Notes: generated by a model not told the origin, from the letters alone. Positions 55,479 through 60,835 are shown, counted from the stretch's first letter. The stretch is DNA of 64,000 bases from the human T2T-CHM13v2.0 reference genome, Homo sapiens (GCF_009914755.1 NC_060927.1), one strand, 5' to 3'. Numbers and translations: made by a program.

Positions 55479-55933
55479 CTATTTACATTTTTAATCCATC
55501 TAGAATATGTATTATATATGAACTGAGGAAGAAATCTGATTTCTGTTTTTTCTTCCAAAATAGTATACTTTAAAGGTGGTTTCTTATCCCAGTCTTTCAG
55601 ATACACTAAATAGTTTTGATAAGATTTGTGTAATATCTTGATATTGACTCTTCTCAGTTATCAGCACTATTTTGACAATCTTCTGGCACTCCATTAGTTC
55701 AACAGGTAATTATTTAGCAGGACATAAAGAATACACAGTATGATTATCAGGATATTTAAATGTTATTACTAGAGGCTGTTCTCTCTATGGAGTAGCCATT
55801 CTTTATTCCTTTACTTTCTTAATAAACTTGCTTTCACTTTACTGTATGAACTCGCCCTGAATTCTTTCTTGTGTGAGATCCAAGAATCCTCTCTTGGGGT
55901 CTGGATCAGGACCCCCGTCTGGTAACATCTTTC

Positions 55934-55952
55934 TGGTGACCACAGAAGGGAC
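55934..55952 (+). other. Retroviral primer-binding site, tRNA-Arg-like (TGGTGACCACAGAAGGGAC)
   Basis: Just after the LTR end ...GGTAACA; resembles the complement of the tRNA-Arg(TCG) 3' end as recalled. Confidence 0.65.
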
Positions 55953-56473
55953 AATACTAAGGAAATCCCGACCCAAAGCGGTGGGGTCTGGTAACGTCTT
56001 TCTGATGAACTACGGAAGGGACGATACTGCGGAGACCCTCCAACCCAAAGACTGCAGCACTGATTGGCCAACTTTGGGTAAGCGGGGTGCATACACCCGG
56101 GCAAAGGATAGGATTGGGTTACAGGCCCAACTTGGTGGAGTTAAAGTCTCTCCTAAGACAGAGTGGGTTAAAGACCCCTCTCAATAAAAGGCAAGGATGC
56201 TTGACTGAACTTGGGTTTGAAGCCCAACTTAGGAAGGTTAGATTCCTTCCTAAGATTTAGGGGCTCCTCTCAGTAAAATCCCTCTCGGCTAAGAATGGGT
56301 TTGGCACTATGGATGTTAACTGCTATTCTGTTTGAATTAATCTGCCTTGCACTCTTTGCTGACGGCGGTCGGTGATAGGATTAGGCATGTACAGGATGGT
56401 GGGACATGGGGAGCTTTTACCTCCCTAAAAGGAGAAACTTGAGAGCTGATGGGACTGCTAGAAAAGATCCCCC

Positions 56474-57005
56474 TTTTTTTTTAATTCCAAGTGATAACTC
56501 TGTATTCCCACAAGTGGTATATATCGTAAATATTAAAATGATCATTGTTTTTAGTTGGTAGACATCGACAAGTAGGAAAATTTGCGAGGTCCGAGAGGGA
56601 CTGCAGGAAACGCCTCCCTTCCTGGCTTCCCTCGCTCCAGGAGACGCTTGGTGGGCACCCAGGAAGCTCCGTAAAGGCTTCTGGGACGGGCAGAAGCCCC
56701 GCGCCCCTGCCTGCACCCCGCGCGCCTGCTCATGGCACGCCACCAGCACGGGCCAGGCGCACAAGTGCAGCACCAGCGGGCTGCGCGCCAGCTCCCCGGT
56801 TCGCCGGCTGCGGTACGCCTCCTGCGCGTTGCCGAAGTCCACTGCGGGCACCGGCGGCCACACTGCCTCGGCCGACCCACGTCCTGGCATGGCTGCTGGG
56901 CCCACGGCAGGCTGTTCGCGGGCAGCCGGCTCCGTGGACAGCAGGGCGAAGCGGGTAATGTAGGGGTGCAGCACCGGCAGGAGGCGCCTCAGAGCCATGG
57001 CGGGC
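56474..57005 (-). pseudogene. PRODH-derived retrocopy: first coding exon (91 codons, 56726-56998) + non-PRODH-coding downstream sequence + poly(A)
   Basis: Translation MALRRLLPVL...PPVPAVDFGNAQEAYRSRRTGELARS...CHEQ is colinear with the proline dehydrogenase N-terminus; T9 at 56474-56482; TSD AAAAGATCCC at 56462-56471 and 57006-57015. Confidence 0.9.
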
Positions 57006-58498
57006 AAAAGATCCCTTCTTAACTGACAAGTGGCCACCTGAACTTTTTATTTAGTGTCGGTTGCAATGGGCGGGTCTTTCTCTGGTCTCTCTGAGCACCT
57101 TGCTTTCCCCATCCTGCCACAAAGCAATGCTTTTCTCCCTTCCCTTCCCTTTCTCTCTCTGTGCAAACTGGTTGAATGAATGGCAAAAATCACTGTTTAT
57201 CTCCTCTGTAAAGTTTTGATTAATAAAAAAAGGATTTGTGAGGCTAGTCTTAAGCTGTAGTGAATCTGGTGTGCTTTGCATGTCTTTCTGAATTGTTCTG
57301 TCATAGAGATGGATACCTTAGGATAAAACACAGGCTTAGAACACCATAAGCCCACTGTTTAAGATGGCCCAGCAAACTAGTCAGTTATAAACTTTGCTGC
57401 AGGTCCCTGAAAAAAAAAAAACTGGATGAGGTTTCCCCTCTTGTCTTGTATGTCCTTGGGAGCTTGACCTTGTAACCATGTGGCCTAGCTTTGTCTTTTC
57501 ACAATGGTATCCCGGGTTCAGGATTCAGTTCCTGGCTTAGGGAATGAGTCCTTTTCTTCTGTTTGTCTGTGTATTTATATGTGTTGTGTGTGTGATATGA
57601 AAGAGCTTTGGTTAACTGGTTTAAAAATAAGTGCTTATATCAAATATTTTGTCGGAAAAGTAAAAAGTATAATGCCTTTAATTTATGTGATTTAAGTAAT
57701 CTTTGAGAAATTGAAACAATTCTACATGTAAGGTGTGTAAGGAAAGTGAAATGTGTTTTTTTTGTTTTGTTTTGTTTTGTTTTTGAAATGCGTTTTTGGT
57801 AAAAGATTATAAGAAGGCACAGGAATGTGGATTTTTTTTTGTCTAGATTAAAAAGTTAAAGGATTGTTTTAAGTTAAATAAGATAATGCTTAAGGTTTAA
57901 GCAAGTTGTGGAAGGTTTGTAAAAAATTAATCTTGTAAAAGAAATTCTGTGTGTGAACATATTGTCTAAAGTTAAAGGGGTATTCAGTTTTTCTGTAAAT
58001 TGAACATTGGAATAAAAGCACAACAGGTTCTTCTTAAGGCACTGATCTGCTCTTTAACAAAAATTTGTAAAGGGTTATAAAAGGTTTATGAGAACCTCAC
58101 CTTATGGTCAAACATTAAAATTGGGTAGATATGTCTATAAGGTTTTATTGAAAATTGGGTTTAACATTAATAGTACAGTTATGTAAAGGTGAAATTTGGC
58201 TTATTTGGCATAAGAGTCATACAGGAAGCAGTGTCAAATGTGAAATAGTGTTTAGCTTTCTTTGGGCTATATTTATATAAATATGTTGTTAGTATGTGTT
58301 CCAAAATAATGGGAAACTCCTATAATTCTGATATGACTTAGTGTACATTATCAGTATAATTATAACTGTTACATAAAACCATTGTATGCAACAGAGGTAA
58401 CCAAATTTCTTTGTCAATTGTGTTTTTAACTGTGGCTGCCCTAAAACTTTTTGCCATCCACAGACAATTGTCTTGTTTTGATCCTCTTCAAAAGGAGA

Positions 58499-58797
58499 TT
58501 TATTATTATTATTATTACTTTGAGACTGAGTCTCACTCTGTCGCCCAAGCTGGAGTGCAGTGGCACAATCTCAGTTCACTGCAACCTCCGCCTCCCAGGT
58601 TCAAGTGATTCTCGTGCCTCAGCCTCCCAAGTAGCTGGGATTACAGGTGCATGCCACCATGCCTGGCTAATTTTTGTATTTTTATTACAGACAGGGTTTC
58701 ACCATGTTGGTCAGGCTGGTCTCAAACTCCAGGTCAAGTGATCCACTTGCATCAGTCTCCCAAAGTGCTGGGATTACAGGCATGAGCCACCAAGCCC
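58499..58797 (-). mobile_element. Alu inserted in the MER41 internal region
   Basis: (TTA)n tail; CAAAAGG(A/T)GATTTT flanking repeat. Confidence 0.88.
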
Positions 58798-60835
58798 CAA
58801 AAGGTGATTTATAATCAGCTATACAACTCTAATAGGTGTTCTTGAATGCAGGTTTCATTTAACTTTGGAGATTGTGACATTAGAAAAGGGAAAAAGAAAC
58901 TTTCAGGACTCTCATGGAAAGTTGAAATGTTCATGTATATCAAGCAAAACAGGAGTTAACTGTACAGACTAAACTAACAGAAGTCTGAAGTAATCTTTTT
59001 TGACTTTTTGCTTAAAACATTGCTGATCCTCTGTTTTGTTCTTCAGAGTAAAGGAAACTTTTCTTTTAAGCTATTGACAGCTTTTTAAACAATTAAGTAA
59101 TGTGCACACTCATAAACAAAATTTGGAGCATATTTGTTTCTCTCTATCTGATTTCTCCAGAATTTGGAAATTATTTGTGACTATCTTAACTTACGGCAAT
59201 ATAGTTATTTGCATAAATGCAATAAGAATCTGCTTTCTTTTGCAATGGGACACAACTGGAGAAACTGGTTATTTTACCAAGGCTTTGACTGGAATGGCAT
59301 GCTTTCCTTTAAGGAATCAAACTTGACTTGTAAAGCCAATAAAAGCCCCTGGGGAAAACTGGCCTCATTCCTTGTCTACACAGTCTCTATATAGGGTTCC
59401 TAACCTGTAGTAAGTAAAGAATGTCACTTTCTGAAAGACTCAGGAGCCCCAAGTTATCGTGAGACCTCAAGAGGAGAAAAATTTACCCAACTCATAGGTA
59501 TTTGAGGGTATAAACCCATGGCTGGGCTGGGCTTAAATACAAAAAAGGTCTTCTCTGACATTCCTTATGGAAGAGTTATATCAAAACCAATTTTAAAAGC
59601 CTGTATGGCAAATAATTATTCTTGCTGCACTTTGTACAAATAATCAGGCCATGTATAATAAAGCAAATCAGTCTTACCATGATTTGTCTTTAGTAAAAAT
59701 GGGAAACCGGAGAGAGAAAAATTATGTTTCAAGAACTATGGCACATTTGTTATTAAATTTTGGTCTCATCAGTTGTTTTTGAGATTTCCTACAATTTAGA
59801 CTAACCCTGCTTATTCCTGTGGACCAACCAGTGATCCCTGGATGCTGCTCAGAAGAAACAGGAGGGACTGGTAATGCAAATATCTGAATCAATATTCTAA
59901 TCCTGGGCATGTATTGGAATCACCTAGCAACCTCATATCGGCTTGGTTCCAACAGTTGCCCAGTTAGTGGAAAGCCTTCTAACTTAGTTAACTTGGGATA
60001 ATCTTGCTTACTTTGCTCTACTGTTGTGGAATATATTACTGTTATACTCTTTGTGTAGAAATGCAGGATAAGCTTACCAAATTTTTTTTTAAAAACACAT
60101 ATTAATCTTCCAGATATCACCTTTTGTCGGAACTCATGAGTTATGAGTGGCCCTCAACATACCGATGCTTTCTAACTAAGCTCCTCTCTCTATACTGAAC
60201 ACAAGAGATCCTAATAGTTAGGCAGGAATATCATCACCCCATTCAGCCTGAAGAAGTTACAGAAGATGGATCTTTGTCCCTCTGCAACCCTTAGGATTAA
60301 GCGTGCTCTTACAAAAGGGAAAAGGGAAATGTCAGAGGCATTTGAACCAGAGCAACTCCCATCTTGAATAGGAGCTGGGTAAAATAAGGCTAAGACCTGC
60401 TGGGCTGCATTCCCAGTAGCAAGTTAAGGCATTTTTAATCACAAGAAGAGATAGAAGGTCAGCAAAAGATACAGGTCATACGGACCTTGCAGATAAAACA
60501 GGTTGCAGTAAAGACGTTGGCTAAATCCCACTAAAACCAAGATGGTAACAACAGTGACCTCTGGTCGTCTTCACTGCTACACTCCCACCAGCACCATGAC
60601 AGTTTGCAAATGCCATGGCAACGTCAGGAAGTTACCCTATATGGTCTAAAAAGGGGAGGCAAGAATACTCCACCCCTTGTTTAGCATATCATCAAGAAAT
60701 AACCATAAAAATGGCAACCAGCAGCCCTTGGGGCTGCTCTGTCTATGGAGTAGCCATTCTTTATTCCTTTACTTTCTTAATAAACTTGCTTTCAATTAAA
60801 AAGAAGTTATTACTAGAAATACAGAATAGAAATAG

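What the first reader, a model, noticed from the sequence alone, without database searches (positions are those of the whole stretch)
55758..60817. MER41A ERV inserted as an L1-mobilised RNA copy rather than as a provirus
Seen: the 5' LTR has no U3 and starts at 55774; the 3' LTR has no U5 and stops at CA (60794), 10 nt after AATAAA (60779-60784), followed by an A-rich tail. The ends share only a 63-nt R (55774-55836 vs 60732-60794, 61/63 identical). Flanks carry a 12-bp perfect (14/16 extended) TSD GTTATTACTAGA, preceded by TTT/AAAT. Established: integrase makes two full LTRs with 4-6-bp TSDs, whereas R-U5...U3-R-poly(A) with long TSDs marks L1 trans-mobilisation, well known for HERV-W. I do not recall this being emphasised for MER41. 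Inference: a full-length MER41A genomic RNA was retroposed by L1.
Basis: partly seen in the sequence, partly recalled or inferred. Interest (0 to 1): 0.72.

Follow-up and report, generated by a model that had tools for sequence, protein, structure and literature searches.

The report
L1-pasted MER41 RNA copies, long and tiny
This 5-kb remnant of an ancient retrovirus (MER41) in a human intron has the shape of the virus's RNA and was most likely pasted in by the LINE-1 machinery; the genome holds at least eight similar long copies and about fifty 66-base mini-copies that likely come from very short RNAs, something described for other elements but not found in print for MER41.

Summary
Observation confirmed, with one correction. 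The element (55774-60797, antisense in an MCCC1 intron) reads R-U5-internal-U3-R-short A tail between a 14/16 target-site duplication (TSD) after TTT/AAA. The RNA end is 60797, not 60794, so R is 66 nt. L1 retroposition of an unspliced MER41A RNA is very likely (0.93). The locus is not a one-off. 10 of the 39 closest relatives also start at R without U3; all 7 whose 3' end I saw stop at the same site before an A-rich tract. A genome scan gives 112 polyadenylated MER41 R ends against 869 normal R-U5 junctions. 54 of 98 inspected are R alone (about 66 nt plus A tail), 27 of them with strong TSDs (0 of 203 shuffled pairs). These resemble tarsier TINEs: short LTR transcripts retroposed by L1. The mechanisms are known (HERV-W, HERV-H, HML-2; TINEs), but nine searches found neither for MER41, and a review calls HERV-W the sole such group. 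No primate orthologues could be checked.

The parts
55758..55773 (+). Left target-site duplication (core 55762-55773), preceded by TTT (L1 endonuclease-type TT/AAA site)
55774..55839 (+). 5' R (66 nt), start of the RNA; first 24 nt fold into a stem-loop (-9.9 kcal/mol, z -1.9, weak)
55840..55927 (+). U5, ending ...AACA; followed by the presumed primer-binding site (not tested)
55928..60312 (+). Non-coding MER41 internal region, unspliced; splice-donor-like GGTAAG at 56077-56082; two deletions of about 350 bp (near 57152 and 57712) not bounded by GT-AG; no Pfam retroviral domain in 10 of the 23 ORFs tested
56462..57015 (-). Nested retrocopy of a chr22 exon plus 5' part of its intron (PRODH, name recalled), 90% identical over 527 bp (56478-57004), A tail 56474-56482, own TSD (10-bp exact core 56462-56471 / 57006-57015); absent at this site in 12 of 12 other MER41 copies
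58490..58812 (-). Nested Alu with 14-bp TSD (58490-58503 / 58799-58812, 13/14)
60313..60329 (+). Polypurine tract
60330..60731 (+). 3' U3 (402 bp), lacking a 43-bp GAS-bearing segment present in relative L062 (MER41A type); TATA-like CATAAAAA at 60704-60711, 28 nt before R
60732..60797 (+). 3' R with AATAAA (60779-60784); RNA end at 60797
60798..60817 (+). Short A tail (60798-60801) and right target-site duplication (60802-60817)

Best explanation
The element has the exact outline of a MER41A genomic RNA (R-U5-internal-U3-R-A tail) between a 16-bp target-site duplication, and was most likely inserted by LINE-1 target-primed reverse transcription rather than by a retroviral integrase. Shown: both LTR breakpoints, tail, TSD and target motif; the same breakpoints in at least eight other copies. 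Inferred: a provirus was transcribed from the R start (28 nt after a TATA-like box), cleaved 13 nt after AATAAA and polyadenylated; L1 ORF2p nicked TTT/AAA, primed on the tail and copied all ~4.2 kb. Having no U3 upstream, the copy is predicted to be promoterless. Two further L1-type inserts (chr22 exon/intron RNA, Alu) landed in it; whether before or after it moved is not known. Family level: MER41 LTRs likely also made ~66-nt RNAs that start at R and are polyadenylated at the same LTR's own signal, and L1 pasted these as R-only mini-elements (about 0.7 for this step), as described for tarsier TINEs.
For: Locus. Relatives: of 39 non-window hits to the 5' junction (40 of 3013 candidates scored), 25 have U3, 10 start within 2 nt of R with no U3, 4 are unresolved. 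For 7 of those 10 the 3' end was seen; all 7 stop at CACTT (+0-3 nt) before an A-rich tract; TSD-like matches are clear in 4 (exact 15 bp in L033/L065) and weaker in 3. One more such copy on chr10 (L151/L131). Genome: 112 R-end+A5 hits vs 869 R-U5 hits, reversed-pattern controls 0. Of 98 non-window tailed loci, 49 begin within 3 nt and 54 within 6 nt of the R start; random truncation predicts about 0.5 in that 7-nt window. TSD score >=10 in 27 of 54 R-start loci and 29 of 69 short loci vs 0 of 203 shuffled pairs; lengths 10-22; TT precedes 15 of 29. Foamy virus makes such R-only polyadenylated RNAs from its 5' LTR (PMC3694450 passages).
Against: No outgroup empty site was seen. The tail here is only 4-5 pure A. 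No RNA data: TSS and poly(A) site are read from the copies' ends. 19 of 54 R-start loci score under 7 for a TSD (old age, and my finder ignores A-rich TSDs). For 3 of the 10 R-start relatives no tailed 3' end was found (L031 broken; L027 and L150 not in the stretch fetched).
Confidence: 0.93

Rival explanations
1. An ordinary integrase-made provirus that later lost 5' U3 and 3' U5 by two deletions, with a chance flanking repeat.
For: Old element (80-86% to nearest relatives) with other internal deletions; very short tail.
Against: Both ends fall on the RNA's ends, the same ends recur in at least eight other loci, and a 12-bp exact flanking repeat is unique in the window.
Confidence: 0.03
2. 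Mini-elements only: R-only inserts are 'solo-R' relics, made when a long retrocopy collapsed by recombination between its two 66-nt R repeats, or when L1 reverse transcriptase jumped from 3' R to 5' R.
For: Either route gives the same TSD-R-tail-TSD outline; long copies with two R repeats exist (this locus).
Against: At R position 11 the C:T variant is 42:5 in R-only inserts but 13:10 in U3-bearing tailed copies (p 0.004) and 338:355 genome-wide (p 3e-8), so they come from a different source pool. This site was picked after looking at two; the other showed no difference. 66 nt is short for homologous recombination (general knowledge).
Confidence: 0.22
3. Mini-elements only: they are ordinary 5'-truncated copies of long MER41 RNAs that stop at the U3/R border, for example at the R stem-loop.
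For: Truncated copies exist: 8 end inside U3 and 4 inside R. R begins with a hairpin.
Against: 49 starts in 7 nt against about 0.5 expected; a stall would be expected at the 3' foot of the hairpin (position 24; one case), not at position 1; the start equals that of full-length copies; variant skew as above.
Confidence: 0.06
4. The whole 5-kb unit was made inside a retroviral particle (host RNA capture, aberrant integration) rather than by L1.
For: It carries a host-gene fragment inside an ERV internal region.
Against: The fragment has its own tail and TSD, is antisense, matches only chr22 and its paralogue (3 hits) and is absent in 12 of 12 other copies; the ends lack the TG...CA LTR termini that integrase needs.
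Confidence: 0.03

Closest known systems
HERV-W processed pseudogenes (PMC5016936, PMC5537654: passages read; Pavlicek 2002 not held, seen only as cited)
   Same: R-U5 5' end, U3-R 3' end, A tail, TT/AAAA-type site, long TSD; many copies per family.
   Different: Different family, with a non-coding internal region; PMC5537654 calls HERV-W the sole HERV group so mobilised; here most tailed copies are R alone.
L1-retroposed HML-2 rec-like mRNA at 2q32.1, and HERV-H retrocopies cited there (PMC3590776, passages)
   Same: L1 hallmarks on an ERV transcript; shows HERV-W is not unique.
   Different: Spliced and few; this copy is unspliced and full length.
Tarsier TINE1-3 (PMC5059674 passages and supplement passage; PMC5322556 section 21)
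   Same: Short Pol II transcripts from an LTR with TATA box and poly(A) signal about 80 nt apart (here about 75 nt), retroposed by L1.
   Different: Described as tarsier-specific, from LTR77_TS and MER83B-like LTRs, about 30,000 copies; here human, MER41-derived, about fifty seen. MER41 occurs 0 times in that paper's main text and 4 held supplements.
MER41A / MER41B LTRs (PMC9963469, passage)
   Same: U3 lacks the 43-bp STAT1-motif segment that defines MER41A against MER41B.
   Different: Known as solo-LTR interferon enhancers, not as L1 cargo.

Membership tests
L1-processed ERV pseudogene (HERV-W type) | 5' LTR is R-U5 without U3 | tested here: met
L1-processed ERV pseudogene (HERV-W type) | 3' LTR is U3-R without U5, ending at the poly(A) site | tested here: met
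   ends at 60797, the end shared by the tailed copies
L1-processed ERV pseudogene (HERV-W type) | Poly(A) tail | tested here: met
   short: 4-5 A, A-rich into the TSD
L1-processed ERV pseudogene (HERV-W type) | TT/AAAA-type site and long TSD | tested here: met
   TTT/AAAT, 12 bp exact, 14/16 extended
L1-processed ERV pseudogene (HERV-W type) | Empty site with one TSD copy in an outgroup | not testable with these tools
   no primate genomes held
Integrase-made provirus | Two full U3-R-U5 LTRs, TG...CA ends, 4-6 bp TSD | tested here: not met
MER41A | 43-bp loss of the STAT1/GAS segment relative to MER41B | tested here: met
   43-bp gap at about 60660 against L062, which holds TTCCTGGAA there; no TTCNNNGAA in this LTR; definition from PMC9963469
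MER41A | Best match to the Dfam/Repbase MER41A and MER41-int models | not testable with these tools
   no repeat library held
TINE-like short LTR retrosequence (the R-only inserts) | Short LTR piece from TSS to the LTR's own poly(A) site, A tail, TSD | tested here: met
   54 of 98 loci; TSD >=10 in 27 of 54
TINE-like short LTR retrosequence (the R-only inserts) | Source LTR with TATA box about 80 nt before the poly(A) signal | tested here: inconclusive
   TATA-like CATAAAAA 75 nt before AATAAA; promoter function not shown
TINE-like short LTR retrosequence (the R-only inserts) | Origin from a short transcript rather than collapse of a long copy | tested here: inconclusive
   variant skew favours it; orthologues and RNA data missing
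TINE1-3 proper | Derived from LTR77_TS or MER83B-like LTR in tarsier, >1000 copies | tested here: not met
   human, MER41 R, tens of copies seen

The most novel reading that the evidence does not exclude
MER41 is a second major L1-mobilised human ERV group, and humans carry an overlooked TINE-like family: likely hundreds of ~66-nt R-only retrocopies made from one MER41 sub-lineage whose LTRs polyadenylate their own RNA 66 nt after the start. They are a fossil record of germ-line LTR transcription that marks the start and end of the RNA to the base, and the same scan may find such families for other human LTRs.
Probability: 0.65. Interest if true: 0.7.

Novelty: new member of a known kind. Interest (0 to 1): 0.58.

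Why it matters
It contradicts the published statement that L1 mobilisation is specific to HERV-W and shows that about one in nine MER41 R ends matched by the patterns (112 of 981) is a tailed RNA copy, not an LTR. Such copies are promoterless or enhancerless at the 5' end and would distort counts, dating and enhancer studies of MER41, a much-studied interferon-enhancer family. The R-only inserts extend the tarsier TINE mechanism to the human lineage, map the ancestral TSS and poly(A) site, and suggest that poly(A) suppression in the 5' or solo LTR leaked in the germ line. No function is implied for this locus itself.

Tried and rejected
Host-gene capture by the ERV (rejected: single copy, own tail and TSD). 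Splicing of the MER41 RNA (rejected: the two gaps are not GT-AG bounded and the donor-like site is unused). Coding remnants (10 of 23 ORFs scanned, only sub-threshold unrelated Pfam hits; the host-derived ORF gave none). A single master gene for the R-only inserts (not supported: mean identity 0.83 within, 0.83 to U3-bearing copies; they are enriched for one variant but not a tight clade). Cap-derived extra G (suggestive only: L068/L069 and the chr22-derived insert; templated G confounds the MER41A type). T3/T4 variant in R (no difference). Whole 10-kb copies were not obtained, so 23 tailed U3-bearing loci are mostly unclassified as full-length or truncated. Pavlicek 2002 and Chuong 2016 are not held and were not read; Pavlicek may discuss R-only forms for HERV-W. 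Earlier scan notes were not available.

Full report
Observation. The chance of such a match near both junctions is about 2e-4. The ends share only R. One correction: tailed copies elsewhere mostly end ...TTTCACTT before the A run, so 60795-60797 belongs to R (66 nt, 63/66 identical) and the pure tail is 4-5 A. The element lies antisense in an MCCC1 intron (hub annotation).

Anatomy. 5' R-U5 (55774-55927); a non-coding internal region with an unused donor-like GGTAAG at 56077-56082 and two ~350-bp deletions not bounded by GT-AG; polypurine tract; U3 60330-60731; R to 60797. Ten of the 23 ORFs were scanned against Pfam with no retroviral hit. The U3 lacks a 43-bp segment that relative L062 has and that holds a GAS motif; PMC9963469 (passage) gives this deletion as the mark of MER41A and dates MER41 to 45-60 million years.

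Nested inserts. 56478-57004 on the minus strand is 90% identical to chr22:19.31 Mb and 88% to a paralogue at 20.68 Mb, its only other hits. The translated start is that of PRODH by my recall; no tool named it. The copy begins 6 nt before the ATG, with one G not in the parent, runs through the exon into the intron, and ends 21 nt after an AATACA-type signal in an A tail. It has its own TSD (10-bp exact core, about 15 bp extended, after TT), and 12 of 12 other MER41 copies show the empty site. It is likely an L1 copy of a short, intronically polyadenylated transcript. An antisense Alu with a 14-bp TSD sits at 58490-58812. Neither insert's order relative to the MER41 move is known.

Other long copies. 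A search with the 5' junction scored 40 of 3013 candidates. Of the 39 non-window loci, 25 have U3 before R, 10 start within 2 nt of the R start with no U3, and 4 are unresolved. For 7 of the 10 the 3' end was seen; all 7 stop at CACTT before an A-rich tract. TSD-like matches are clear in four (chr14: exact 15 bp; chr2, chr4, chr15) and weaker in three. One 3' LTR is broken and two were not in the stretch fetched. One more R-start copy with a 14/15 TSD was found on chr10. The sample is biased to close relatives of this copy.

R-only inserts. A 27-letter pattern for the R end plus five A (one mismatch) hits 112 places; the matching R-U5 pattern hits 869; reversed controls 0. I inspected 98 non-window tailed loci: 94 of the 100 rows listed (left out: the window itself and five chr1 duplicates; 12 hits were not listed) plus 4. 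49 start within 3 nt of the R start, 5 within 4-6 nt, 4 inside R, 9 have an antisense Alu in R (set aside), 8 end in U3, and 23 run to the edge of the stretch. L056 and L098 share flanks and are probably one event; L082 is probably R-only but was counted as U3. Random truncation predicts about 0.5 starts in the 7-nt window that holds 49. TSD scores of 10 or more occur in 27 of the 54 R-start loci and 29 of 69 short loci, against 0 of 203 shuffled flank pairs; TSDs are 10-22 bp, end at the R start (offset 0 or 1 in 19 of 27), and follow TT in 15 of 29. Against: 19 of 54 score under 7.

How they arose. Best: transcription from the R start (TATA-like box 28 nt upstream) with polyadenylation at the same LTR's signal gives a ~66-nt RNA that L1 copies whole (about 0.7). 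Foamy virus makes such RNAs even in wild type (PMC3694450, passages). Collapse of long copies by R-R recombination or template jump (about 0.22) predicts the same sequence mix as long copies, but position 11 of R is C:T 42:5 in R-only inserts, 13:10 in U3-bearing tailed copies and 338:355 genome-wide (p 0.004 and 3e-8). The site was chosen after looking at two, and the other showed no difference. They are not one tight clade.

Known kinds. HERV-W processed pseudogenes have the same three hallmarks; PMC5537654 (passages) calls HERV-W the sole HERV group so mobilised, though PMC3590776 (passages) reports an HML-2 case and cites HERV-H. Tarsier TINEs are short LTR transcripts retroposed by L1, described as tarsier-specific (PMC5322556 section 21; PMC5059674 passages and one supplement passage; MER41 0 times in its text and 4 supplements). 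Nine searches on these themes listed no paper on MER41 retrocopies or human R-only inserts; I saw most hits as listings only. Passages of PMC5016936, PMC2831318, PMC11359688, PMC10194239 and the HERVarium preprint did not mention them; that preprint's supplements are closed. Pavlicek 2002 and subscription papers were not available, and Repbase/Dfam notes could not be checked.

Verdict. The locus is a real, likely L1-made MER41A RNA copy: a new member of a known kind. Its value lies in the class it exposes: at least nine long copies and about fifty TINE-like mini-copies in the human genome. Interest 0.58.

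Noticed in passing
window 56462-57015 (-): Unannotated retrocopy of a short chr22 transcript (PRODH by recall) that keeps the start of an intron; it lies in MCCC1's sense direction, its exon donor reads GC instead of GT, and it brings an AATACA-type signal into the intron.
   Followed up: partly
L037 (chr1:202863264) and L088 (chr17:49939917): R-only inserts whose TSD is the antisense strand of a MER41 R; L037 is seen to lie antisense inside another MER41 LTR. 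The T-rich R is an L1 endonuclease target.
   Followed up: partly
L052, L072, L096, L101, L119, L123, L133, L134, L141, L068, L151: Antisense Alu inserted in the T-rich part of MER41 R (mostly near position 30-34) in many tailed copies: a hot spot, or a shared Alu-bearing source RNA.
   Followed up: no
L056 (chr5:51498267) and L098 (chr1:120343003, plus five more chr1 hits): The same R-only insert with the same flanks on chr5 and in a chr1 duplication family.
   Followed up: no
L003 (chr22:20679579-20683114): Paralogue of the parent exon with an in-frame TAG where the parent reads CAG.
   Followed up: no
window 55175-55496: Antisense Alu with a 15-bp exact TSD (55178-55192 / 55478-55492) 280 bp upstream of the element.
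   Followed up: no
window 55917-56008 and 56114-56255: Internal direct repeats in the MER41 leader, including a second copy of the U5-end/primer-site junction 69 bp downstream; shared with relatives.
   Followed up: no
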